Assembly: GCA_963841735.1 (NCBI GenBank) | Contig: CAWJDT010000004.1 | Location: 160,001 to 224,000, forward strand | DNA from: an uncultured Actinomycetes bacterium | Lineage (GTDB): Bacteria; Actinomycetota; Thermoleophilia; RBG-16-64-13 | Direction of reading: 5' to 3' | Length of the DNA: 64,000 nt | Shown: piece after piece, positions 49,795 to 60,272 of the stretch | How the letters are laid out: every line of letters starts with the position of its first letter | Numbering within the stretch: position 1 is the stretch's first letter | The notes under the pieces: model-generated | Databases searched by the model: none | What the model was told of the DNA's origin: nothing | The model's input: the letters and a program-made list of their open reading frames with translations, nothing else | Position numbers and translations under genes: made by a program

Positions 49795-52305
49795 CTAGCC
49801 CCGCTCGGCTTCCTTCTGGGCCTCCGCAAGAATCGCTTCGTACTCCTTCGCCAACTCGAGGGCGCGCTTGTCATCGGCGGCTTCAGCGTACACGTGAAAC
49901 ACGGGCTCCTCCGGGTCTGGAAGCACCAGCACCCACTCCGATTGGTCGAGAAACACCTTGATTCCGTCCACCAGGGACACCCGTGCCTGCCCCAGCCTCT
50001 GTGTCAAACGGCGCATCACCGCACCCTTCAGCTCCCACGGGCAGTCGGAGGACAACTGGGCCATGTGCGCCACAGGAATCTTTCGCACCAGTTGCGATAG
50101 GGGCACAGAAGCAACAGACACCAATTCGAGGACCTTGCCAAGAGCGTAGAGACCGTCCATGGAAGCCAGGACCCCGGGATAGATGTATCCACCGTCGATG
50201 CTGGCGGCAAAGATGGTCTTGGGCCTAGCGGCCTCAGCCATCAAGGCCCCGCGCGAGCACTTGCTGCGCCGGATACTGACGCCGGTCGCGGCGACGCTCT
50301 GTTCCGCCAGGCGCGTGGCGTGCAAGGGCAAGGCCGCCACTCCCCCGCCTGCTTCCTTGGCGACGTTCTGAAGAAGCAGCAAGAGCAGGGCCGAGTGAGG
50401 CACCAGGTTACCCTTGTCATCGACCACGTAGAGGTATTCGGCACCGGGGTCGAGGATTGCTCCCAAATCGGCGTCGGTAGCGCGGACAAGGTCGGCCACA
50501 CGGGCGACGGCGGCGGGGACGCTCTCCGCCAGGGTGAAACGGGAACGCACCCGAGAGAAGGTGTTGAGAGCGATTGTCTCCACCCCCAGCTTGTCCAGAG
50601 TGGCAGAGAAGAAGAATGCTGGAGCGGAAGAAGAGTAGTCCAGCACCAGCCGGGGCTGCCGCCCCCTAATGGCCACAGTGTTCCAGTTATCGAGAAGCAG
50701 GCTGGTGTACGTCTCAATGACGCGTGGCGGATAGACCACGTGCCCCATCTCCTCGAAATGAGCCCGGCGGAAATCTTCGCGGAAGTAGATGTTCTCTATG
50801 GCCCGCTCGCGTTTGCTGTCGATAGGAACGCCCGGCGACTCCGAGAAGAGGATCTCCACGTGCTCTGGGTTGTCTAGGCTCATCTGCACGTGAATGCCGC
50901 CCACAGCGTTGCCGCCCTTTACGTCGAAACGATTAACGGCTAGAGGCGCGGTAGTGAGATCACGAACGCAGACTCCGGTTGAGTTGAGGCCGCTGATGAT
51001 GGCGCGTTTGATGACCCGGCAAGCAGAATGAGTGTCGCGGCTGGTCGTGACGAAGGCGCCTTTGGTGACGAGCGACCCGTACGCCATAGCGAGGCGCATG
51101 ACTGTCTCTGGGGTCACGTCCACGTTGGCCAACCCGCGTACCCCGTCACGACCGAACAAGGTACTGGGTCCCCGGGTCTCCCACACGATGGATGAGCGGA
51201 TGGTCGAGCCAGGCTCGATGTTCTTAAAGGGATAGACCTTCACGTTGTTGGCGATCACCGCGTTGCGCCCCACCACTGAGCGGTCGCCCACCACCGCTCC
51301 GTCGGCTATGTGGGCATTCTCGTGGACCTCCACCCCATCCCCCAGAATGGCTCCCTCGACGGTGGCGCCGGAGGCGATGTAGACGTTCTCGCCCAGCACC
51401 GAACCTCCGACATTTGCGCCGGTCCGTACCACGGTGTTGTCTCCCAAGACGGTGTGCGCCAGGACTCGGCCGCCTGCGTCGATGCGAACGTTCGCGCCTA
51501 TCACAGCAGGACCTTCTACGTCGTCTAGGCCTTCAAGGGCAGCTCCCTGGCCTATCCAGATATTGCCGCGCAGCCTGACCCCGGGTGGGGTCAGTTGGAT
51601 CTTACCGTCCAATGCATCGCGATTGGCCTGCAGATACTGTTCGAGGCTCCCGATATCTTGCCAATAGCCCTCGCAGGCTAGGCCGTATAGCGGTTTCTGC
51701 ATTTCGAACAACTTTGGGAAGAGATCGCGACTGAAGTCGTACGGTTGGCCCTCAGGTATGTGGTCGAAGATCTCTGGCTCGCATACGTAGATGCCCGTGT
51801 TCACCGTATCCGAGAAGACTTGACCCCAACCGGGCTTCTCAAGAAACCGCTGGATGCGCCCCTCGTCGTCGACGATGACTACTCCGAACTCGAGGGGATT
51901 GGCGACACTCTTGAGTGCGATGGTAACCATGGCCTGGCGTTCACGATGAAAGGCGATGACGCTGGTTAGATCGAAATCTGTAAGAGCGTCGCCGCTGATG
52001 ACGAGGAATGTCTCGTCTAGGTAGTCTTTGGCCAGCCGAATAGAGCCTGCCGTGCCCGCGGGGATCTCTTCTACCGTGTACTCGATGTGCATACCCATGC
52101 CGCTGCCGTCGCCGAAGTAATTGCGAATATGCCGGGGCAGGAAGGCCAGGGTCATCACGACTTCGTTTATGCCATGGCGCTGGAGCAGTTCGAGGATGTG
52201 CTGCGCCGTTGGTTTGTTCACCACAGGCACCATGGGTTTGGGCTGATTGGAGGTCAGCGGCCGCAGACGTGTACCCTGACCTCCTGCCATGACGACTGCC
52301 TTCAC
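49795..52305 (-). CDS. mannose-1-phosphate guanylyltransferase / phosphomannomutase fusion
   Basis: [29 protein letters not shown], hexapeptide repeats, then LFGRDGVRG phosphohexomutase domain. Confidence 0.9.
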
Positions 52306-52429
52306 GGGTACCTCCCGACGGGAAACTCCACTACGACACTACCAGTGGTACCCTACCCGTTTTGGAAGACAATGAGAAGTGGGCGCTGCCAAGCGTCCTC
52401 CCCCTTAGCAAAATCGGCGCCACCCATCA

Positions 52430-52477
52430 AAGTCGGGACGGCCGGATTTGAACCGGCGACCTTCCGGCCCCCAGCCG
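52430..52477. repeat. att core repeat (duplicated 3' part of tRNA-Pro)
   Basis: AAGTCGGGACGGCCGGATTTGAACCGGCGACCTTCCGGCCCCCAGCCG, identical to 60196-60243. Confidence 0.95.
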
Positions 52478-52604
52478 CTTACAGGCCGATTCTGGCCATT
52501 TTAGCCTGTCGGAGGCTGTCTCCCAAAAGACGCGGTTTGCAGGGCTTTGCTGCCGTGAGCGCCGACAGGCTGAGACAGGCAGTAACACCTGTGCGGGACT
52601 TTTC

Positions 52605-52626
52605 GTGGAACATTCGTGGAACATGG
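52605..52626. repeat. putative integrase arm-type sites (left)
   Basis: GTGGAACATTCGTGGAACATGG (tandem GTGGAACAT), identical to 60120-60141. Confidence 0.75.
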
Positions 52627-52690
52627 AGCCGCTCGCCTCGCTTGGCCACGTAGCCCGTGCCCGAACCCAGGGAAGCCCGATCTTGCGGGC

Positions 52691-52719
52691 TTGCTTTCTG
52701 GTATACCTCCGAGTATGCT
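52691..52719 (+). promoter_or_regulatory. sigma70-type promoter for the accessory two-gene operon
   Basis: TTGCTT-N17-TATGCT, ~40 nt upstream of ATG 52760. Confidence 0.55.
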
Positions 52720-52759
52720 TTGCAGTGTCACTTCCAGCATCACTAGAGGGGCGGCAGAC

Positions 52760-52996
52760 ATGACCGATCTTGAGAAGGTGCGCGAGAATCGACTCCGGCG
52801 CATGGCCGCTCGGCAGGGGCTCATGCTCCGCAAGTCGCGACGCCGCGATCCCTACGCGCTCGACTACGGCACGTATCAGCTCGTTGATATGTCCACCAAC
52901 ATCCTCATTCAATGGGAAGGCATCGCCTACCCCGGCTGGAGCCTTGACGAAGTCGAGGAGTGGCTAACCAGGGACCATGATGCGAGGAAAGCATGA
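52760..52996 (+). CDS. small Arg-rich hypothetical protein (78 aa)
   Basis: GAGGGG RBS; MTDLEKVRENRLRRMAARQGLMLRKSRRRDP...; ATGA overlap with the next gene. Confidence 0.75.
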   Translation: MTDLEKVRENRLRRMAARQGLMLRKSRRRDPYALDYGTYQLVDMSTNILIQWEGIAYPGWSLDEVEEWLTRDHDARKA

Positions 52997-53367
52997 GCAC
53001 GACCACCAGCATTCTCAAGGCTGCTTTGGCGGCAACGGTTAGGTCGACCGCCGAGTGGCGAAAACTCAAGGCTGAGGAATACGCCGGAGACGAGCGCAAC
53101 GCGCAGTGTGCGGCCGGGCTCGAGGATCTCGCGGTGTGGATCGAGGCCCTCGACGATACGGACGCACGGCTCGTGCAGCTTGCGGCGCTCGATTGGGCAG
53201 ACGACTTCTTCTCAGCGGGCGAAGAGCCGTCCCGCTTGTTGGGTCGCTATCGTTTCGATAGGGAAGATGAGAGCCCCGATCAGTTCCTGGACAGGTTCGT
53301 CGAAGCTTGCATCCAAGAGGCGATGGTCAACGCGGATGAGCCGTTCGACGGCGATATCGCCCGGTAG
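52993..53367 (+). CDS. acidic hypothetical protein (124 aa)
   Basis: GAGGA RBS; translationally coupled; AEWRKLKAEEYAGDERN motif, function unknown. Confidence 0.75.
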   Translation: MSTTTSILKAALAATVRSTAEWRKLKAEEYAGDERNAQCAAGLEDLAVWIEALDDTDARLVQLAALDWADDFFSAGEEPSRLLGRYRFDREDESPDQFLDRFVEACIQEAMVNADEPFDGDIAR

Positions 53368-53417
53368 GCTTCACAGGATCAACGTAGGCGCAACAGACAG
53401 CGGCCGGAGTAGGAAGA

Positions 53418-53765
53418 CTACCCGGCCGCTTCGCTTTGCCCGTGCGCCGGCGTCGGAAGAAGACGGTCGAGAAAGGCGGTCGCACCGCGATACAGCCCCA
53501 GGATCACAGGGTAGAGCTTGGCCTCCGGCGTGCGTTTGGTGCCGGATTGGCTCGGCCCGTTGTTCCAATCGACCGTGAGGCTGTGCGCGGTCATGTGCCT
53601 CTGGAGATCGTCCAGGGTCACGCCCAGGAAGGCGGCTTGCCCCAAGAGCGAGTCGAGCCCACGCAACCGCTCCGGACCAATGTCGCGGTAAATGCGGCGA
53701 AGTCGGGCCTTCTCTCGCTTGATCCGGCGAGCTTTCTGCTGGGGCTCTAAGTCGGGCGAAGTCAT
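53418..53765 (-). CDS. putative phage terminase small subunit (P27-like)
   Basis: Resembles Gram-positive cos-phage TerS (RL..I...AAF..VTL.DL......NG..Q.GTK..PE..LY...L..LLP); GAGGTG RBS. Confidence 0.7.
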   Translation of the reverse strand: MTSPDLEPQQKARRIKREKARLRRIYRDIGPERLRGLDSLLGQAAFLGVTLDDLQRHMTAHSLTVDWNNGPSQSGTKRTPEAKLYPVILGLYRGATAFLDRLLPTPAHGQSEAAG

Positions 53766-54058
53766 CGCAAATCACCTCATCTTGAGGGCCGTTGGGGCCG
53801 CTTATTCTTGACCCCCCCTATGCCGGGTTTTTTCTGCCGCGCTGAAGTTATTCTCCACTTACCGGTCTCCAGCCATGCTTCACATTTTGCATGCACGGGG
53901 GGATCACCTCTGCCAAGTTGGTGTGCAGGCCTCCCGCCGCAGAGACGAGAGGCCTGCTCTGCTGCTCTCTTTCCCTGTATCCCGCGCGCATGAATCGAAC
54001 ACGCAGGAGGCCGGCAGGGCAGCATGGCGGGAAGGATGCCCGCGACCGTTGGCACCTA

Positions 54059-55462
54059 TCAGCTAACCGCCGACGTGGCCAGGTTCAAGATCCTGAAGGC
54101 TTCGGGAACCACTACGTCGGAACCGGTCCTGAACCAGAGGAAAGCCCCGCGCTGGCCAGTGGGCCGGCGGTTCTCTCCGAAGACGTGCGGGACGATCTCG
54201 ATGGTGCTGCCGATCCGGTCCGCGATGATGAAGTTGCTCCAATCCCCATAGCAGAGAATGAGGTTGTCTTCGGTCGCGCCGGTGTCAACGTCGTCCGTGT
54301 CCGCCATGTTGGAGCATTCATGGAGCGGCCGCCTCAGCAGCTTGCCGTCGGCCAGTTCGGGGAAGACCCTCGACCCATTGTCGGTCTCAAACTGCGCGAT
54401 GCTGTTGATCGTCGGGAGACCGGCGACCCACCGCGCGTTGGGCTGGAACCGAGCGGGAAGAGCGTTCTGCACCGCGTAGACATCCGGCGTCGTGAACGTC
54501 TCGAATGTTGCCGGAGACAACTCAGAGCCGGTGCCCGCAAGAGCGGTCACAAACCCGGTCGGCTGGCCGTCGCCGCTGCCGGTTGTGAAGGCCGCTGCCT
54601 GCAACTGGTCTGCCGCGTCGACGAGCAACTTGGCGAGCTCTTCAGCAAACCGCAAGCCGTCCATCCCGATCTCAAAACTGAAGGGGACGAACGCGTCTCC
54701 GAAGTGCACCGGAACTTCGGCCTCGGCAAGCGTGGGGCTCGCGTCGGCTGCCTCGCTTCCTTCGCTCTTCCATTCCGCACTACAGCCGGCGCTGGTCACG
54801 CCTTGCCAAGTGTTCGAAGTGGTCTGGACCACTCGGGCGATTTGGCGAAGCGGATTGTTGGAACCGTCGGAGGTCAGCAAGATCGCGGGATCCAAGAACA
54901 AAGGCAGCATTTCGCCACCGTAGCCGGCCCCGGTGCTGAGAGCCGCGCGAAAGTCGCGCTTGACGGCCTGGACCTGCTGGTATGCGGCACGCTCTTCGTC
55001 GGTCCACATCATGTGGCCCTTTGAAGGGTCGGCCATCATCTTGAAGAAGGCGCTGGCGTAGGCGTCGCTCCCGGTGGCCTGCGCCCACCTGGACGCCAGG
55101 TCGCGGGATGCGTCGTCGCCGGTCGTGACGAGCCTCTCGGCCACAGCCGCCGCGGGCGCCGGCAGCAGACCGCGCTCGTGAGCCGCGTTGATGATGCGGC
55201 GCGCCGGGTCGGTATCACGGGAGCCGAAGACCGGACTGTTGCTACCGCGGGCGTCCGGCTGGGGGAACGTGCGGGCGGTGGGCTGAGGCGGGGCCTTCAG
55301 CGCGTCGGGGTCGGCCCCAAGACGGATGGCGGTGTTCCTGCGCTTGCGTTCCTCCGTGAGTGCGTCCACCTCGGTCTCCAGAGCATCGAGGTCGGCGTCG
55401 GGCTTCTTCAGCTCGGCCTTGATCTCGCTGAGCCGGGCGTCAATCTGTGCGATACGTTTCAT
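54059..55462 (-). CDS. HK97-fold major capsid protein with N-terminal coiled-coil scaffold (phiRv1/phiRv2-like)
   Basis: LDPAILLTSDGS.NPLRQIARVVQTT, GSGDGQPTG, GDWSNFIIADR.G and RPTGQRG...WFR.GSDV..PEAFR. Confidence 0.92.
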   Translation of the reverse strand: MKRIAQIDARLSEIKAELKKPDADLDALETEVDALTEERKRRNTAIRLGADPDALKAPPQPTARTFPQPDARGSNSPVFGSRDTDPARRIINAAHERGLLPAPAAAVAERLVTTGDDASRDLASRWAQATGSDAYASAFFKMMADPSKGHMMWTDEERAAYQQVQAVKRDFRAALSTGAGYGGEMLPLFLDPAILLTSDGSNNPLRQIARVVQTTSNTWQGVTSAGCSAEWKSEGSEAADASPTLAEAEVPVHFGDAFVPFSFEIGMDGLRFAEELAKLLVDAADQLQAAAFTTGSGDGQPTGFVTALAGTGSELSPATFETFTTPDVYAVQNALPARFQPNARWVAGLPTINSIAQFETDNGSRVFPELADGKLLRRPLHECSNMADTDDVDTGATEDNLILCYGDWSNFIIADRIGSTIEIVPHVFGENRRPTGQRGAFLWFRTGSDVVVPEAFRILNLATSAVS

Positions 55463-55806
55463 GACGAAAACCGCCTTTCAGGCGTAGAAAGTCAGTGTTC
55501 TTGGGGGATCATCCGGTGCCGGACGATCAGTGTCGGCGCCTCTGCGGCCCCGACAGGACCTGGCCACCTCTGCGGCGGCAGGTGCCGAGTTGTAGGACAG
55601 GCATCTCTCCGACACCAGCACCACCCGGGCTCTCTCCGACCCCGGCCGTCGCCATGCCCTCTCGGGCAGCATGGCCCCCGCCCTTCGGCGGTCGTCCGGT
55701 GTGCCATGCCGGACTGTCGGAAGCTCTTCGCTTCCAGCGAATCACCCGACCGATAGCAGCATGGCATCTCTGCGACGCCAGCCCGTCCGGGGCCTCTGCG
55801 GCACCT
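55463..55806 (-). ncRNA. putative structured leader RNA with an array of C(GNAGA)G hairpins
   Basis: Seven pentaloop and two tetraloop hairpins; stem wobbles read as G-U on the - strand; begins just after a TATAAT box. Confidence 0.65.
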
Positions 55807-55808
55807 AG

Positions 55809-55849
55809 ATTATACCGCTTCCAGCGGACAGGGAATACGCTCTGAGCGT
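55809..55849 (-). promoter_or_regulatory. late promoter: -10 box plus upstream palindrome
   Basis: TATAAT (- strand, 55814-55809), no good -35, perfect palindrome ACGCTC-T-GAGCGT at 55837-55849. Confidence 0.55.
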
Positions 55850-56113
55850 TCATGCGACCACCACACCCACGTCTTCGTTGCAGCCGCACTTCCGGCATAC
55901 CCACCACTCGGCCGGCAGTTTGGAAGCCGGGTTGCCCCACAGGATCGCTCCCAGGGTCGCGCCGCACTCCGGGCAGGTGAACGTTACGATCTTGCCGCCG
56001 CCGGTCTCTTGCACAGCGAAGGTGAACATGGCGCCGTGCGGTGGTACTTGGCCGCACCAGGGCTCTTGCTGCTGTGCGGGTGCACCGGTGAGGGCTTCGT
56101 GATGTAGGGTCAT
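55850..56113 (-). CDS. zinc-ribbon protein (87 aa)
   Basis: CPEC-x22-CRKC. Confidence 0.7.
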   Translation of the reverse strand: MTLHHEALTGAPAQQQEPWCGQVPPHGAMFTFAVQETGGGKIVTFTCPECGATLGAILWGNPASKLPAEWWVCRKCGCNEDVGVVVA

Positions 56114-56137
56114 AGGATCACCGCCTTCTTGCTGAAC

Positions 56138-56332
56138 TCATCGCCATAGACCCGGCCGGATGAACACTGGCCTTTGCTCCCTGGCTTCCCGGGCCCGCGC
56201 TGCCTGATCCCTGGCGGCCGTCTGCGTAGTGCAGACCCCGAAGGCCACGGACCGGCCGCTGTCCCATAGGCGCCAGGTCCACAGAGGCGCGTCGGGCTTT
56301 GATCGCTCGGATTCTCGGATCTCTACCCTCAC
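56138..56332 (-). CDS. small hypothetical protein (64 aa; WxWRL motif, DUF1508-like)
   Basis: AGGAGG RBS before GTG 56332; LWTWRLWDSGRSVAFG..T...A. Confidence 0.6.
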   Translation of the reverse strand: MRVEIRESERSKPDAPLWTWRLWDSGRSVAFGVCTTQTAARDQAARAREAREQRPVFIRPGLWR

Positions 56333-56354
56333 GCGCGGACCCTCCTTTTGGAGT

Positions 56355-56460
56355 TTCTTACTCTTACCTCCTATAGAGAAAGAGGAACGGTAAGATTCCG
56401 TTCCCTCTCTCTTTCTCTTACCGGTAAGATTCATCGTTCTTACCACGGTAAGATTCATCC
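56355..56460. repeat. iteron cluster / putative replication origin
   Basis: CGGTAAGATTC at 56388, 56422 and 56446; inverted TCTTAC(C) copies; palindrome CTTACCGGTAAG; AT-rich with purine/pyrimidine tracts. Confidence 0.75.
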
Positions 56461-57707
56461 GCACGGCTCCACCTGCCCCGGCCCACGTTCTGAATGAGCC
56501 CCTTGTCCTTCAACTGAGTGAGGGTCTTACTCACTGTGCCAGGAGTGGTCCCGATGGCTTCGGCAAGCTCTGACGGTCCACAGGGGCCATTCTCAAGCTC
56601 GGTGAGGATCATGTCCCGGATGGCGCCGGCCTCCGTCGATACATCGTTGACGGCCGCCTCCTCTACCACCAGGGCGTCACGGTCGAAGATCATCCGCAGA
56701 CCCACGGGCTCCACGTCGCCCATGTTGGTCTTGCGCGGGAAGAGCCCGACGCGGTACACGCCCGGCCGCTCGCGCTCGGAGCGGATCTCCCAGGTGATCC
56801 GTGCGAGGTTCTCCCAGTAGATGCTCCCAATCGGCAGCCGGTGGTGGTTCTCTTCGCGCCGGTCTGCCTTCGTGGTGTGGGTCTGGATATCGACGGCGGC
56901 GCCGGTGCTCGCTGTGACCTTGCGCAGACTGCCGAAGAACTGGATGGCAAGCTCAGAGCTGGCCACGTCTCCCCCACACGCGAGGCCCGCACTGTCGATA
57001 ACGACGAACTTGATCTCATGCTTAGCGATAACCTTGGCGATCTCGGAGGCCTCGTCTGCCATCGGGCCCGTGCACCTGCGGTAGAGCGGGAAGCGGATAT
57101 CACGGGCGATATAGGTCTTCTGGAGACCAGTCGCCAGCATCGTGCAGCGCCGCGCCGCCTCTGCCTCTGTCACTTCCCAATCGAGAATGAGCGTGTTCGC
57201 CTGTTTGGTGTCCCTGGCCTGGAAAGGCAGCCCGTTCTCTATGAGGAGGGCCTTGTAGATGGAAACGAAGCTCTTGAACTGGCCACCCGGAGCGAAGCTG
57301 AGGACCGGGAGCCCGTCTAGGATCACGTTCCCCAGCATGTACTCGACATCGACACTAGTCACCGGCTGAAGGCGCCGCGTAGGCGATCCCTGCTCCTCGT
57401 GCTCCAGGATAAGCGTGCAACTGGTCTCGATTACCCGGTCCCAGTTGACGCTGTCGCGCGGGAGTCGCTCCTCTAGCGTCTGCGACAATCGGCGCCGGGT
57501 CTGGCCGGCCGCCAGATTCATGGCCTCGTGGTGAACTTTCTCGGGATCTCGGCCGGGAAGAGCGACGAAGATCTTGACGGTACCTTGCACCCGGCCGTCA
57601 GAATGGGTCCGCAGACGCCCGGCCTCAAACTCGACCATGGCATCCGGGAACGACCATCGGACGATGTACTCCCCTGGCGCCGTGGTGATGGTGGGCGTCA
57701 CATCCAT
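56418..57707 (-). CDS. RepA/AAA_25-type helicase-ATPase with C-terminal wHTH (replication protein)
   Basis: Walker A APGGQFKS, LILDWE, Walker B VVIDS, QTH.K, GS..W...AR; C-terminal ELAEAIG..PGTVSKTL..L...GLI...GRGRW. Confidence 0.82.
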   Translation of the reverse strand: MDVTPTITTAPGEYIVRWSFPDAMVEFEAGRLRTHSDGRVQGTVKIFVALPGRDPEKVHHEAMNLAAGQTRRRLSQTLEERLPRDSVNWDRVIETSCTLILEHEEQGSPTRRLQPVTSVDVEYMLGNVILDGLPVLSFAPGGQFKSFVSIYKALLIENGLPFQARDTKQANTLILDWEVTEAEAARRCTMLATGLQKTYIARDIRFPLYRRCTGPMADEASEIAKVIAKHEIKFVVIDSAGLACGGDVASSELAIQFFGSLRKVTASTGAAVDIQTHTTKADRREENHHRLPIGSIYWENLARITWEIRSERERPGVYRVGLFPRKTNMGDVEPVGLRMIFDRDALVVEEAAVNDVSTEAGAIRDMILTELENGPCGPSELAEAIGTTPGTVSKTLTQLKDKGLIQNVGRGRWSRADESYRGKNDESYR

Positions 57708-58009
57708 GGCTTCGCCCTGGGTCTCTTCCTTGGCGGGCGGGCCATCTCCGAGCCGAGTAACTCACTCCGCAGTCTTTCGCAGATCCCGATGCGCTCGTCT
57801 GCCCATGCGGAGACGCTCAGCCTGCGCATTCCTCGCCACATGATGTTTCGCGGGTAGAGCTCGGCGATGCGAGCGGCCTGATACTCGGCGCTCAGCAGCT
57901 CGCACAGCGACATGTCCCGCAAGTCCAGGTTGTAGACCTGCAGGAACTCCTCATAGCTATTCGCCGCGTTGGGCGGGCGAAGCTGAAGGCGGTATGCCCT
58001 CGCGCTCAT
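57698..58009 (-). CDS. hypothetical protein (103 aa)
   Basis: Coupled ORF between xis and rep in the leftward operon. Confidence 0.6.
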   Translation of the reverse strand: MSARAYRLQLRPPNAANSYEEFLQVYNLDLRDMSLCELLSAEYQAARIAELYPRNIMWRGMRRLSVSAWADERIGICERLRSELLGSEMARPPRKRPRAKPWM

Positions 58010-58013
58010 GCGT

Positions 58014-58241
58014 CTAACCCCTGCCCTCGACCCGCTCTATGATCTTTGCCCGCGGGACGAAGACATTACGGCCTACAGTCAGCACCGGTACTCCCATGAG
58101 TGTGCCGTGGGCCTTGATCTCCCCATATAGAGCGTTCAGCCCTGGGCCGTGCGGCAGAGCCTCCCAGAACTCTCGCGGTTTCGAGAGCGGGTTTGGGTCC
58201 ATCTTGAACCGCTCCCAGGATGTCAGTGTGCGCGATGGCAT
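58014..58241 (-). CDS. excisionase-like HTH protein (start may be ~58202)
   Basis: LY..IK..G...VPVLTVGRNVFVPR winged-helix Xis pattern; first gene divergent from the repressor. Confidence 0.7.
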   Translation of the reverse strand: MPSRTLTSWERFKMDPNPLSKPREFWEALPHGPGLNALYGEIKAHGTLMGVPVLTVGRNVFVPRAKIIERVEGRG

Positions 58242-58281
58242 TGAAACCCTCCCAGGTTCAGTGAGCCTTGTGACGTATCAA

Positions 58282-58339
58282 ATTGTAGGCCAACGGATGT
58301 TGACAGTGCAAGCGGTTCTATGATACTAATGCAGTATCA
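58282..58339. promoter_or_regulatory. divergent promoters and repressor operator (genetic switch)
   Basis: + strand TTGACA-N16-GATACT; - strand TTGCAC-N18-TACAAT; palindrome TGATACT-N5-AGTATCA at 58321-58339. Confidence 0.7.
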
Positions 58340-58359
58340 ACGACGGCCGGAGGAGAGAC

Positions 58360-58911
58360 ATGACGGATACAGAGAGGGCAAAACCGCGGGAGTTGGTCGG
58401 TCGCAACCTTCGGAGGATTCGCCAGGATCGCGGGCTTTCTCAACGTCGGCTGGTCGAGCGAATGAGGGGGCTCCGGTTTTCGTGGCACCAGACAACCGTT
58501 CAGGGAGTTGAGACGGGCACGAGACCCGTCTCGATCGATGAACTAGTAGCTCTCGCCATCTGCCTGGACACTGACATTGCATCGTTGCTCGATCCCGTTG
58601 GCGCCGGTCTCCCGAGCCTTCCGATGGAGCAGGGCACACTTGCGGAGGCGGGGACTGTAGACGTCGGTCTTCCGTGGGGCTTGTGGGGCCGTTTCTTTCG
58701 CAACCTCATTCCCGTGTCGCAGGCGCAAGGTAGCAGCCCGCGGTTCGTCCAGACCATTCCAGACTGGCGCGATGGGGAGCCGGTGGGCGGTCTACAGCAG
58801 GAATTCGCCATCCCTGCCGATGAGGACGCGCTCCACACCAAGGTGAAAGAACTCGAAACCCTGGTCGAACAATTGAAGGCGGCGTTGCCGGCACAAGGGA
58901 GGAAGTCGTGA
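58360..58911 (+). CDS. XRE-family HTH repressor
   Basis: VGRNLRRIRQDRGLSQ..L...WHQTTVQGVETGTR.VSIDELVALA. Confidence 0.88.
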   Translation: MTDTERAKPRELVGRNLRRIRQDRGLSQRRLVERMRGLRFSWHQTTVQGVETGTRPVSIDELVALAICLDTDIASLLDPVGAGLPSLPMEQGTLAEAGTVDVGLPWGLWGRFFRNLIPVSQAQGSSPRFVQTIPDWRDGEPVGGLQQEFAIPADEDALHTKVKELETLVEQLKAALPAQGRKS

Positions 58912-60107
58912 GAGGCTCCGTTCGTCGTTGGCGCAATGGTTGGCAGTGGCGCGTGCGGACGCCGGAAGGCCGGTGGATCTCCAAGTCCGGTTATCGCCTT
59001 GAGCGCGAGGCTCAGGACGCGCTCACCAAGGAACTAGCGAAGATGGGCGAAGGCCGGTTCGTGGAGCCCGACCGGATCACGGTCGGGGCGTACCTGGAAG
59101 ATGTGTGGCTCCCGGCCGTGAAAAGCTCTGTCGGGCCTAGTCAGTACACGAGCTATCAGACCATTCTAGAGCGGCATATCAAGAAGCACATAGGCGACGT
59201 GAAACTGCAGAAGCTCACGGAGCCCCACGTCATCCGCATGTACCGCGAACTCGAAAGGACAGGCCATCGCTACTCTACCGACGATGCCCCTCGCGGTCTG
59301 GCTCCAAAGTCCGTGCGTCACGTTCACGCCATGTTGCACCGGGCTTTGAATGACGCCGTAGAGTGGCGCTACGTGCCCCGCAACGTTGCCGAGAGCAAGA
59401 AGACCAAGCCGCCCCGGCCCAAACGTCAAGCCGACATGAAGGTCTGGACTGCGGAAGAGCTGCAGCGCTTCCTTGCCGCGGTGCAATCGGACCGGCTGTT
59501 CCCGTTCTGGCGCTTCCTCGCACTTACCGGCGTTCGCCGTGGCGAGGGTCTCGCGCTCCAATGGTCCGACGTGGATCTTCGCGCCGGCGTCGCGTCGATC
59601 GCTCGGGCTCGCACCATTCACGGCACGTCGGCGCCGAAGACGGAACGTAGTCGCCGCTCCCTTGACCTAGACCCGCAGACCGTCGCCGTGCTCAAGTCGT
59701 GGCGCAAGCGGCAGCTAGAGGAACGGCTCCGCTGGGGCGAGCTTTGGAGTGATACCGGCCTTGTGTTCACCCGCGAGAACGGCAACGGCTACCACCCGGA
59801 CGGGATCACCGGGATCTTTGAACGGCTGCAGCGTCAGCACAACGACGCGAAGAAGAAGGAAGCCGAAGAGCGGAAGAAGGCCGGCGACGCCACAGCGCAA
59901 CCGGAGGGCCTTCTCCCCCGAATCCGGCTGCATGACCTTCGCCACACTCACGCGACGCTGCTACTTGCGAGCGGCGTCAATGCCAAGATCGTCTCAGAGC
60001 GTCTCGGCCATGCCTCCGTGGCGTTCACCTTGACCGTGTACGCGCACGTTTTGCCCGGCCAACAGAAGGAAGCGATCGGGCGCCTGGCGGCCCTGGTCGA
60101 TGGCTAG
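58908..60107 (+). CDS. tyrosine integrase
   Basis: Arm-binding N-terminus, TGVRRGE, PKT, HDLRH, LGH and VYAH; adjacent to att. Confidence 0.96.
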   Translation: MRGSVRRWRNGWQWRVRTPEGRWISKSGYRLEREAQDALTKELAKMGEGRFVEPDRITVGAYLEDVWLPAVKSSVGPSQYTSYQTILERHIKKHIGDVKLQKLTEPHVIRMYRELERTGHRYSTDDAPRGLAPKSVRHVHAMLHRALNDAVEWRYVPRNVAESKKTKPPRPKRQADMKVWTAEELQRFLAAVQSDRLFPFWRFLALTGVRRGEGLALQWSDVDLRAGVASIARARTIHGTSAPKTERSRRSLDLDPQTVAVLKSWRKRQLEERLRWGELWSDTGLVFTRENGNGYHPDGITGIFERLQRQHNDAKKKEAEERKKAGDATAQPEGLLPRIRLHDLRHTHATLLLASGVNAKIVSERLGHASVAFTLTVYAHVLPGQQKEAIGRLAALVDG

Positions 60108-60119
60108 TCCGGAGTTTTG

Positions 60120-60141
60120 GTGGAACATTCGTGGAACATGG
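60120..60141. repeat. putative integrase arm-type sites (right)
   Basis: Identical to 52605-52626. Confidence 0.75.
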
Positions 60142-60162
60142 CCGGCCGCCAAGCCTTCAGGG

Positions 60163-60193
60163 CAAGAAAAAAGCCCCGCGTTTGCAGGGCTTC
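60163..60193 (-). terminator. element-supplied terminator downstream of tRNA-Pro
   Basis: - strand AAGCCCTGC-AAAC-GCGGGGCTT followed by TTTTT. Confidence 0.7.
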
Positions 60194-60198
60194 TGAAG

Positions 60199-60272
60199 TC
60201 GGGACGGCCGGATTTGAACCGGCGACCTTCCGGCCCCCAGCCGGATGCGCTACCAAACTACGCCACGTCCCG
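60199..60272 (-). tRNA. tRNA-Pro(GGG), CCA not encoded
   Basis: CGGGACG acceptor stem, TAGTTTGGTA D-loop, TCCGG-CTGGGGG-CCGGA anticodon arm, GGTTCAAATCC T-arm. Confidence 0.96.

What the first reader, a model, noticed from the sequence alone, without database searches (positions are those of the whole stretch)
55463..55806. Array of C(GNAGA)G hairpins forming a ~340-nt leader in front of a satellite capsid gene
Seen: on the - strand, from just after a TATAAT box to the capsid ATG, seven hairpins have different stems but the same C-G-closed GNAGA pentaloop. The loops are GCAGA at 55795-99, 55769-73, 55569-73 and 55541-45; GAAGA at 55725-29; GGAGA at 55633-37 and 55606-10. Two more C-G-closed hairpins have GAAG (55679-90) and GAGA (55655-68) tetraloops. 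Several stems carry wobbles that are G-U on the - strand (TGGCGTC/GATGCCA, GGTGTC/GATGCC, GCCGCC/GGTGGC), which points to RNA from the capsid strand. Known: GNRNA pentaloops are the fold of lambda boxB, bound by Arg-rich peptides, and repeated stem-loops act as packaging signals in RNA viruses or as protein sponges (CsrB). Inference: a multivalent protein-binding RNA that controls capsid expression (antitermination or translation), sequesters a helper-phage factor, or nucleates capsid assembly/RNA packaging. I do not recognise it as a described family.
Basis: partly seen in the sequence, partly recalled or inferred. Interest (0 to 1): 0.92.

Follow-up and report, generated by a model that had tools for sequence, protein, structure and literature searches.

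The report
Hairpin array in satellite capsid leader
The untranslated leader of a capsid gene on a small phage-satellite-like island carries nine hairpins with different stems but almost the same loop, which looks like a repeated docking site for an RNA-binding factor that has not been identified.

Summary
On the minus strand, between a TATAAT box (55814-55809) and the capsid ATG (55462), there are seven C-G-closed GNAGA pentaloop hairpins plus one GAGA and one GAAG tetraloop hairpin, at the stated coordinates. The cluster is unique in the 2.8 Mb genome: 7 CGNAGAG motifs in 300 nt against at most 4 anywhere else. The stems covary. Wobble pairs fit only the capsid strand, and the region shows no coding signature. 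No Rfam family matches.

The leader belongs to a 7.8 kb island at tRNA-Pro whose only structural gene is an HK97 capsid. One related metagenomic island (L078) has three such hairpins in the same place. The closest capsid relative has none, and other relatives carry different repeated loops. No further example was found in the 67 genome, 80+118 viral-contig or 401 phylum-sample searches.

Best reading (about 0.4): reiterated recognition sites for an unidentified RNA-binding factor that controls capsid mRNA. The rivals are a trans-acting decoy, an RNA-only structural role, and neutral expansion. Expression and a binding partner are untested.

The parts
55809..55841 (-). Promoter-like region: AGCGTA (55841-36), GTCCGC (55829-24) and TATAAT (55814-09). 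There is no canonical -35.
   Evidence: Read. The same AGCGTA..GTCCGC..GGTAnAnT layout is conserved in front of the capsid gene of L078, L003/L009 and L076/77. No transcription data exist.
55789..55805 (-). Hairpin 1, ggtgcc-GCAGA-ggcccc (one U.C mismatch). It lies at the predicted 5' end of the transcript.
   Evidence: -8.1 kcal/mol; the weakest unit, z -0.9
55762..55780 (-). Hairpin 2, tggcgtc-GCAGA-gatgcca (one G-U)
   Evidence: -10.9 kcal/mol
55718..55736 (-). Hairpin 3, tggaagc-GAAGA-gcttccg. It matches a hairpin of L078 at 20 of 21 bases.
   Evidence: -10.6 kcal/mol
55678..55691 (-). Hairpin 4, ccgcc-GAAG-ggcgg (tetraloop variant)
   Evidence: -10.8 kcal/mol
55655..55668 (-). Hairpin 5, tgccc-GAGA-gggca (tetraloop, that is the pentaloop without N)
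   Evidence: -10.4 kcal/mol
55625..55645 (-). Hairpin 6, ccggggtc-GGAGA-gagcccgg (one G.G mismatch)
   Evidence: -14.1 kcal/mol
55600..55616 (-). Hairpin 7, ggtgtc-GGAGA-gatgcc (two wobbles). Together with its upstream spacer it is a diverged duplicate of hairpin 2.
   Evidence: The 31-nt direct repeat 55600-55630 / 55763-55793 is 81% identical (family D7).
55563..55579 (-). Hairpin 8, gccgcc-GCAGA-ggtggc (one G-U)
   Evidence: -11.3 kcal/mol
55531..55555 (-). Hairpin 9, tgtcggggcc-GCAGA-ggcgccgaca (one G.G mismatch)
   Evidence: -17.4 kcal/mol, z -4.8
55507..55528 (-). Tenth hairpin with a GCAC loop, not of the family
   Evidence: Present in the whole-leader fold
55467..55484 (-). Small 3' hairpin CGCC-UGAAA-GGCG followed by GUUUU. 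It holds the likely Shine-Dalgarno sequence (GAAAGG, 55479-55474) 12 nt before the ATG and is terminator-like but weak.
   Evidence: -6.9 kcal/mol. The same segment is conserved in L078.
54059..55462 (-). HK97-type major capsid gene (467 aa) served by the leader
   Evidence: Pfam PF05065 E 5e-37; TIGR01554; phrog_10
55850..56113 (-). 87-aa Cys4 zinc-ribbon gene directly upstream of the promoter
   Evidence: Only sub-threshold zinc-ribbon hits. Homologues stand at the same place in L009 (60%) and L078 (41%).
52430..60243 (.). The whole island: a 48-nt att direct repeat at 52430-52477 and 60196-60243 (the 3' end of tRNA-Pro), integrase, repressor, Xis-like gene, AAA_25/wHTH replication protein and iterons.

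Best explanation
The array is the non-coding 5' leader of the island's capsid mRNA. It folds co-transcriptionally into nine local hairpins. Each hairpin presents the same C-G-closed, GNRA-like loop, G(N)AGA, on a stem of arbitrary sequence. I infer that the loops are reiterated recognition sites for one RNA-binding factor. The factor is most likely a protein, made by a helper phage or by the island itself. I further infer that occupancy of the sites decides whether the capsid mRNA is completed, kept and translated. This would act at the small hairpin-plus-U-run that holds the ribosome-binding site just before the ATG, either by antitermination or by opening of the ribosome-binding site. Related islands carry other repeated loops in the same position, which suggests lineage-specific RNA-factor pairs, as with N and boxB in lambdoid phages. 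Shown here: the hairpins, their strand, their non-coding nature, their rarity, and their position between a conserved promoter-like element and the capsid start. Inferred: transcription, protein binding, and the regulatory outcome.
For: Ten units were taken: every CGNAGAG in the two leaders, with no selection on stems. They have an invariant C-G closure and G.AGA loop. Their 7-bp stems are paired in 85.7% of cells against 66.0 +/- 3.8% in shuffles (0 of 500 reach the observed value) and 33-47% when the partner is slid. Six of 7 pairs show changes on both sides. There are 6 G-U/U-G cells and no A.C/C.A cell (my count), so pairing holds only on the capsid strand. The whole-leader fold has z -3.57 on the minus strand and -2.07 on the plus strand. 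The leader ORFs lack the genes' codon-position GC pattern (GC3 0.64-0.70 against 0.76-0.81; GC2 0.66-0.73 against 0.46-0.53), and the loops fall in all three frames. The cluster is unique in the genome. L078, an independent metagenomic island, has three C(GCAGA)G hairpins at the same position, and one matches hairpin 3 at 20 of 21 bases although the flanking proteins are only 41-57% identical. L076/77 has two hairpins with different stems and the same 12-14-nt loop. The L081/L004 leader starts with a C(GAGA)G-capped hairpin and holds a strong hairpin-plus-UUUU about 80 nt before the ATG. GNRNA pentaloops adopt the GNRA fold and are read by phage N peptides (passages in PMC9830547 and PMC12550061).
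Against: No expression data exist, because no sequencing run was listed. No partner was identified. The island genes shared with L078 are also present in L009, which has no such hairpins, apart from an Xis-like gene. Zinc-ribbon identity runs the wrong way: 41% to L078 and 60% to L009. The closest capsid relative works with a 117-nt leader that lacks the loops, so the array is dispensable for capsid expression as such. One or two sites suffice in known antitermination systems, so nine copies are not explained. The 3' terminator-like hairpin is weak (5 bp, -6.9 kcal/mol). No boxA-like element is present. The covariation is among paralogous units from only two loci, and some units are recent duplicates (D7), so they are not independent. 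The full-leader MFE does not contain hairpins 1-3.
Confidence: 0.4

Rival explanations
1. Trans-acting decoy (sponge). On induction, the abundant capsid mRNA floods the cell with 7-9 copies of the loop. These titrate an RNA-binding factor away from its normal targets, for example a helper-phage late regulator. The effect is interference with the helper rather than control of the capsid gene.
For: High and variable copy number: 0, 3 and 9 units in related islands. Growth by duplication (D7). The motif sits in loops on stems of variable sequence, which is the architecture I recall for CsrB/RsmZ-type sponges. The array is dispensable in the nearest relative.
Against: No target factor is known. 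The assembly holds no resident helper: no second PF05065 capsid and no PF04860 portal, at 89.7% completeness. C(GNAGA)G hairpins are not enriched elsewhere in the genome: 92 of 13510 C-G-closed pentaloops with stems of at least 5 bp. There is no CsrA.
Confidence: 0.15
2. RNA-only role. The hairpins stabilise the mRNA through a structured 5' end, shield a long untranslated leader from Rho or RNases, or dock GNRA-like loops into helices to build a compact tertiary fold. No dedicated protein is involved.
For: Hairpin 1 begins at the predicted 5' end. The leader is unusually structured (z -3.57). GNRA-type loops commonly make RNA-RNA tertiary contacts (introduction of PMC12550061).
Against: Stability or shielding needs no invariant loop with a fixed C-G closure. 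Six positions are invariant in 10 of 10 units while the stems vary. No receptor motif was identified.
Confidence: 0.2
3. Neutral or selfish expansion. A short hairpin unit was amplified by slippage or duplication in a tolerant intergenic leader and has no function.
For: Diverged duplicates lie within the array (D7). The array is absent from the closest relative. Only two loci are known.
Against: The units are not tandem copies. Stems differ with compensatory changes while the loop stays invariant. The same loop is kept in L078 although the neighbouring proteins have diverged to 41-57% identity. No copies lie elsewhere in the genome.
Confidence: 0.1
4. DNA-level element. The array is a packaging (pac/cos) site, a protein-binding array on duplex DNA, or hairpins extruded from single-stranded DNA during replication.
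For: Satellites need a packaging site near their head genes (recalled general knowledge). The repeats have one orientation and are spaced 23-44 bp apart.
Against: The arms differ in every unit, so no duplex-DNA protein could read them. All 6 non-Watson-Crick pairs that preserve pairing are G-U on the capsid strand and would be C.A on the other strand. Origin-like iterons lie elsewhere, at 56455-56389.
Confidence: 0.05
5. Capsid-assembly or RNA-packaging signals. Dispersed hairpins with one loop motif nucleate capsid protein assembly or are encapsidated, as in small RNA viruses.
For: The architecture (variable stems, one loop motif, next to the capsid gene) resembles what I recall of packaging signals in ssRNA viruses.
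Against: The capsid is an ordinary HK97-type dsDNA phage capsid protein. Its closest homologues lack the hairpins. Nothing suggests RNA binding by the protein.
Confidence: 0.04

Closest known systems
boxB hairpins of lambdoid nut sites, read by N proteins (processive antitermination)
   Same: A short hairpin presents a GNRNA/GNRA-like pentaloop in a phage-type leader RNA. Cognate loop variants differ between lineages. A terminator-like hairpin lies downstream.
   Different: There are seven to nine copies instead of one per operon. The closing pair is invariantly C-G. No boxA-like element is present. No N-like gene is adjacent. The host is an actinobacterium (Gaiellales-like). The array serves a single capsid gene of a satellite-like island. 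Antitermination was not tested.
CsrB/RsmZ-type protein-sequestering RNAs
   Same: Many hairpins with variable stems each show the same short motif in the loop. Copy number varies between relatives.
   Different: The motif is G(N)AGA, not GGA (only 2 of 9 loops contain GGA). No CsrA was found in the genome. The array is the 5' UTR of an mRNA, not a separate sRNA.
Type III toxin-antitoxin RNA arrays (ToxI-like)
   Same: Both have the layout promoter, repeat array, terminator-like hairpin, protein gene.
   Different: Those arrays are near-identical tandem direct repeats followed by an endoribonuclease gene. Here only the loops are shared, and the gene is an HK97 capsid.
[quoted passage not shown]
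   Same: Hairpin 5 is C(GAGA)G, the same hexamer as in the host's own 23S gene. The pentaloops equal GAGA with one inserted base.
   Different: There is no bulged-G or flexible region and no further similarity. Only one of nine units is a true GAGA tetraloop. Any decoy role is speculation.
C-G-closed GNRNA pentaloops in solved structures (cluster CGYAYAG, for example CGUAUAG and CGCACAG; PMC9830547)
   Same: The same loop length, the C-G closure, and G at position 1 with A at positions 3 and 5.
   Different: Position 4 is G here. Those structures are single hairpins in unrelated RNAs, not arrays.
Capsid-encoding phage satellites (cf-PICI, MiniFlayer/MulchRoom, EPIPs)
   Same: A small integrated element with integrase, replication genes and its own major capsid gene. 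The satellite classes are as listed in PMC12822802 (main text read).
   Different: The only structural gene found is the capsid. There is no portal, protease, connector or tape measure gene. None of the satellite papers I opened or saw listed describes a hairpin-array leader.

Membership tests
lambdoid nut site (boxA + boxB) | boxB: hairpin with a GNRNA-type pentaloop | tested here: met
   Seven loops are G-N-A-G-A. The family definition comes from passages of PMC9830547.
lambdoid nut site (boxA + boxB) | boxA-like single-stranded element next to boxB | tested here: not met
   The leader has no match to the recalled 8-nt boxA core with up to 2 mismatches. That consensus is enterobacterial, so the test is weak.
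lambdoid nut site (boxA + boxB) | Cognate arginine-rich N-type protein encoded nearby, and terminators that are read through | tested here: inconclusive
   A 78-aa protein with an arginine-rich N-terminus lies at the far end of the island (52760-52996, +). It belongs to a family of more than 1000 uncharacterised members and has no homologue on the L078 contig, which is incomplete. Only a weak terminator-like hairpin follows the array.
CsrB/RsmZ sponge RNA | GGA motifs in the hairpin loops | tested here: not met
   Only 2 of 9 loops contain GGA.
CsrB/RsmZ sponge RNA | CsrA/RsmA protein in the genome | tested here: not met
   PF02599 was not found in G000, which is 89.7% complete.
Any Rfam family | Covariance-model match | tested here: not met
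   Window 50000-60000 has no match in the leader at E up to 10. The leaders of L078, L076, L081, L003 and L085 have none at E up to 1.
Type III TA antitoxin array | Near-identical tandem direct repeats followed by a ToxN/AbiQ-type RNase gene | tested here: not met
   The units share only the loop. The downstream gene is an HK97 capsid.
REP/MITE-like dispersed palindromes | Many copies dispersed in the same genome | tested here: not met
   The leader occurs once in G000. No other cluster exists.
CRISPR array or RNA anti-CRISPR repeat mimic | Identical repeats, and a matching CRISPR repeat in the host | tested here: not met
   The stems differ between units. A simple k-mer scan found no CRISPR-like array in G000. 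The assembly is incomplete.
Protein-coding sequence | Codon-position bias, conserved ORF | tested here: not met
   GC2 and GC3 are flat in the leader ORFs, and the loops lie in all three frames. The leader ORFs have no Pfam hit. L078's leader is too short to hold them.
Phage satellite (integrated, helper-dependent) | att repeats, integrase, replication module, incomplete virion gene set | tested here: met
   A 48-nt att repeat lies at tRNA-Pro. Integrase, repressor and an AAA_25 replication protein are present. The capsid is the only structural gene, and the genome has no portal. Helper dependence and mobilisation cannot be tested here.

The most novel reading that the evidence does not exclude
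The leader is an RNA weapon of the satellite. Its 7-9 GNRA-like loops act in trans as decoys that soak up an RNA-binding factor during helper infection. The factor could be the helper phage's own late-gene RNA regulator, which would be interference and piracy by RNA mimicry. Less likely, it could be a nuclease or factor aimed at the ribosomal sarcin-ricin loop, whose C(GAGA)G cap the loops resemble. In actinobacteria, VapC20/26 cleave that loop (PMC5175351, passages read).
Probability: 0.15. Interest if true: 0.85.

Novelty: new variant of a known kind. Interest (0 to 1): 0.55.

Why it matters
Known phage satellites time their structural genes and interfere with helpers through proteins. A leader built from up to nine copies of one GNRA-like loop would be an RNA-level device for that purpose. 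It would also be a natural multi-copy relative of the boxB tags that are used as synthetic tethering arrays. Lineage-specific loops in sister islands hint at matching RNA-factor pairs that could set helper specificity. The practical limits are that the host is an uncultured Gaiellales-like bacterium, only two loci carry the motif, and nothing is known about expression.

Tried and rejected
**Protein-coding reading.** Rejected.

**REP/MITE.** Rejected.

**CRISPR or anti-CRISPR mimic.** No array was found in the host.

**CsrA sponge.** There is no CsrA and the loops are not GGA loops.

**boxA.** None was found. One search ran over the whole window and its listing was cut before the region, so I repeated the test on the leader alone.

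**Known RNA family.** None.

**DNA similarity of the leader.** No blastn match in 50,697 phage records or 72,556 plasmid records.

**More examples through the capsid.**
- The single-protein scans of genome contigs and viral contigs found nothing.
- The alignment scans gave 67 genome loci, 8 metagenome loci and 80 IMG/VR loci. Only L078 carries the motif.
- L110's two hits lie inside a coding repeat.
- Relatives, order and class searches found the capsid in 7 of 101, 3 of 61 and 7 of 401 genomes, with no new close relatives.

**More examples through the replication protein.** None in IMG/VR.

**More examples through the motif.**
- The exact hairpin-3 pattern had no match in IMG/VR.
All hairpin clusters among them were tandem repeats or pairs.
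- The same kind of pattern matched in 29 of 401 phylum-sample genomes. Besides the window's own genome, all were tandem repeats or chance matches, and none lay next to island genes. Genomes G401 and G483 in that sample are flagged unpublished. Nothing rests on them except that they count among the 401 genomes.

**Generic search for arrays with the same loop and different stems.** In the first 75 loci it found only tandem repeats.

**Partner protein.**
- The zinc-ribbon protein has only sub-threshold hits, and the word-based homology search returned only the protein itself.
- The 78-aa arginine-rich protein belongs to a large uncharacterised family.
- No structure or complex prediction was run, because RNA cannot be included.

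**Expression.** The look-up of sequencing runs listed no run, so read laying could not be used. This is no evidence either way.

**Literature.** Four searches were answered. None of the listings or the passages I read describes such an array, but the searches were narrow. No supplements were consulted.

Full report
**What is there.** I read 55300-55950 on the minus strand. The sequence runs from the stop of an 87-aa zinc-ribbon gene (55850) through a TATAAT box (55814-55809) and about 345 nt of non-coding sequence to the ATG of a 467-aa gene (55462). Folded one at a time, all nine give the expected hairpin, at -7.5 to -17.4 kcal/mol. Seven have z-scores of -2.4 or lower. Hairpin 1 is the weakest (z -0.9) and hairpin 5 follows (z -1.7). 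A tenth hairpin with a GCAC loop and a small hairpin-plus-U-run at 55484-55467 complete the leader.

**Is it more than chance?**
- The window's genome (G000: 2.82 Mb, 8 contigs, 63% GC, 89.7% complete) holds 2692 CGNAGAG motifs, or 4.8e-4 per nt-strand.
- That gives 0.17 expected in the leader, against 7 observed.
- No other 300-nt stretch of the genome holds more than 4.
- With a perfect stem of at least 4 bp required, the genome has 205 such hairpins. This is the only place with 3 or more within 400 nt.
- The loop is not over-represented genome-wide: 92 of 13510 C-G-closed pentaloops with stems of at least 5 bp. The array is therefore a local construction.

**RNA, and on which strand.**
- I aligned all ten CGNAGAG units of the two leaders that carry them, seven from the window and three from L078. 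I did not select on stems.
- Six positions are invariant: the closing C and G, and G, A, G, A of the loop.
- For a 7-bp stem, 85.7% of cells are paired, against 66.0 +/- 3.8% in shuffles (0 of 500 reach the observed value) and 33-47% when the 3' partner is slid by 1-3 columns. Six of 7 pairs show changes on both sides.
- Of the cells that are not Watson-Crick pairs, 6 are G-U or U-G and the 10 unpaired ones are U.C, A.G, G.G, U.U or G.A. None is A.C or C.A (my count). The complementary strand would therefore lose six pairs.
- The whole-leader fold has z -3.57 on the minus strand and -2.07 on the plus strand.
- The caveat is that the units are paralogues from only two loci. Hairpins 1-2 and 6-7 are diverged duplicates (31 nt, 81% identical, D7). 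The counts therefore overstate independence.
- The whole-leader MFE re-pairs the first ~110 nt, so hairpins 1-3 are absent from it. Hairpins 5, 6, 8 and 9 are present.

**Not coding.**
- The ORFs that cross the leader (91, 64 and 176 aa) have flat codon-position GC: GC2 0.66-0.73 and GC3 0.64-0.70. The capsid, replication and zinc-ribbon genes have GC2 0.46-0.53 and GC3 0.76-0.81.
- The loops fall in all three frames.
- These ORFs have no Pfam match.

**Context.**
- A 48-nt direct repeat at 52430-52477 and 60196-60243, the latter being the 3' end of tRNA-Pro (60198-60272), bounds a 7.8 kb island.
- On the plus strand the island holds a tyrosine integrase (58908-60107) and an HTH repressor (58360-58911).
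- On the minus strand it holds, in order: an Xis-like 75-aa gene; a 103-aa gene; an AAA_25 plus winged-helix replication protein (56418-57707); origin-like iterons (AATCTTACCG three times, 56455-56389); a 64-aa gene; the zinc-ribbon gene; the leader; an HK97-type major capsid gene (PF05065 E 5e-37; TIGR01554); about 290 nt of non-coding sequence; and a 115-aa gene (phrog_1066, function unknown).
- Two plus-strand cargo genes (78 and 124 aa) close the island.
- The assembly holds no second capsid gene and no portal gene.
- This is a satellite-like element whose only structural gene is the capsid. No helper is known.

**Relatives.**
- The capsid family is common in Actinomycetota: 657 proteins at E 1e-20 or lower among the 8000 candidates scored.
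- Five island types share the promoter-like layout AGCGTA..GTCCGC..GGTAnAnT in front of the capsid gene.
- Their leaders differ:
  - L003/L009 (an uncultured Gaiellales genome; capsid 68-69% identical) has a 117-nt leader without these loops. Its fold buries the ribosome-binding site.
  - L078 (a 6.6 kb sediment-metagenome contig; capsid 57%, replication protein 81% identical) has three C(GCAGA)G hairpins between the promoter and a conserved 3' segment. One matches hairpin 3 at 20 of 21 bases.
  - L076/77 (capsid 65%) has two hairpins with different stems and the same 12-14-nt loop.
  - The L081/82 and L004/85 leaders are nearly identical to each other. They start with a C(GAGA)G-capped hairpin and contain a long hairpin followed by UUUU about 80 nt before the ATG.
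- The islands are mosaic. Next to the window's leader, the zinc-ribbon and capsid genes are closer to L009, while the replication gene and the hairpins are closer to L078.

**How rare is it?**
- No array of this kind was found in 67 capsid loci from the species-representative genome collection, in 8 metagenome loci other than L078, or in 80 IMG/VR capsid loci.
It returned only tandem repeats.
- In a 401-genome sample of the phylum the same kind of pattern matched 29 genomes. Apart from the window's own genome, all were tandem repeats or chance matches.
- Rfam has no match in the window region or in four related leaders. blastn against phage and plasmid records found nothing.

**What it most likely does.**
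- Shown: a set of independently stable hairpins displays one invariant loop, on the capsid strand, between a conserved promoter-like element and the capsid start. Copy number differs between relatives (0, 3, 9), and other repeated loops occur at the same place in sister islands.
- From the literature: GNRNA pentaloops take the GNRA fold, with one base turned out towards a protein. They are the recognition element of phage N peptides (PMC9830547 and PMC12550061, passages read).
- The GAGA tetraloop in the same array fits a G(N)AGA consensus in which N is the dispensable base.
- Inferred: the loops are reiterated sites for one RNA-binding factor, and occupancy controls completion or translation of the capsid mRNA at the 3' hairpin that holds the GAAAGG ribosome-binding site. 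A leader terminator in the L081-type islands makes antitermination plausible for the family.
- I put this reading at about 0.4.
- The main weaknesses are that nine copies are more than a cis switch needs, that no partner was found, and that the nearest relative does without the array.
- Those same facts favour the decoy reading (0.15). An RNA-only role (0.2) and neutral expansion (0.1) remain open. DNA-level and assembly-signal readings are unlikely.

**Comparison with known systems.**
- It works most like boxB/nut at the level of the loop and most like CsrB/RsmZ at the level of architecture. It is a member of neither family: there is no boxA, no adjacent N-like gene, no GGA loops and no CsrA.
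- It is not a type III antitoxin array, a REP element or a CRISPR mimic.
- Hairpin 5 has the same C(GAGA)G hexamer as the host's sarcin-ricin loop. This supports only a low-probability decoy speculation.
- The island itself is a small capsid-encoding satellite-like element, different in gene content from the EPIPs described in PMC12822802. By my recollection it also differs from cf-PICIs.

**Verdict.** This is a real, statistically solid RNA motif array that is not yet described as a family. Its function and partner are unknown, its expression is untested, and it is known from only two loci.

Noticed in passing
window 52430-52477 and 60196-60243; 52596-52626 and 60111-60141: A 48-nt perfect direct repeat (the 3' end of tRNA-Pro) marks the island ends. 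A second 31-nt repeat (94% identical, containing TTCGTGGAACAT twice) lies just inside each end and may be integrase arm-type sites.
   Followed up: partly
window 56389-56455 (-): Three copies of AATCTTACCG and an inverted GGTAAG lie between the replication gene and the 64-aa gene. They look like origin iterons, and the same layout is present in L003.
   Followed up: partly
window 53766-54058 (-): About 290 nt of non-coding sequence lie between the capsid stop and the 115-aa gene. ARAGORN calls a 94-nt tRNA-Gly(tcc) at 53980-54073 that overlaps the capsid stop, but the Rfam scan at E up to 10 shows no tRNA there. The stretch also contains CTCTGCG, the exact complement of the CGCAGAG loop motif, paired locally with an upstream GCAGAG.
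   Followed up: partly
L085 3800-3868 and L081 4032-4100: Sub-threshold tRNA-like matches (27.9 and 26.4 bits against a cut-off of 29) lie downstream of, or within, the capsid region of two related islands. The capsid match of L081/82 stops at residue 291, so that gene may be truncated.
   Followed up: no
window 52760-52996 (+): A 78-aa protein with an arginine-rich N-terminus belongs to a family of at least 1098 small proteins that have no Pfam domain and no given name. It overlaps by 4 nt the start of an acidic 124-aa gene (52993-53367), so the two may be a pair.
   Followed up: partly
L076 3730-3812: Two hairpins with unrelated stems carry the same 12-14-nt loop, which contains a mini-hairpin. 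Five CCACU motifs are spread over this 215-nt capsid leader. This is a second, different repeated-loop leader in the same island family.
   Followed up: partly
L081 2641-2855 and L004 1250-1460: A capsid leader of about 215 nt is almost identical in two islands. It has a C(GAGA)G-capped 5' hairpin and a strong terminator-like hairpin plus UUUU. It is a candidate attenuator.
   Followed up: partly
window 49795-52305 (-): An 836-aa fusion of nucleotidyl transferase, hexapeptide repeats and phosphoglucomutase/phosphomannomutase domains lies directly outside the island's left end.
   Followed up: no
L301 (G674:C20:37678-40762), minus strand, about 1424-1580: A 39-nt tandem repeat, at least five copies, each forming a C(GCAGA)G hairpin with nearly the same stem. 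It is a repeat family unrelated to the island.
   Followed up: no
L078 2212-2481: L078 carries an extra 89-aa Cys-rich protein upstream of its zinc-ribbon homologue. That homologue has lost the second Cys pair, which is replaced by HHC.
   Followed up: no
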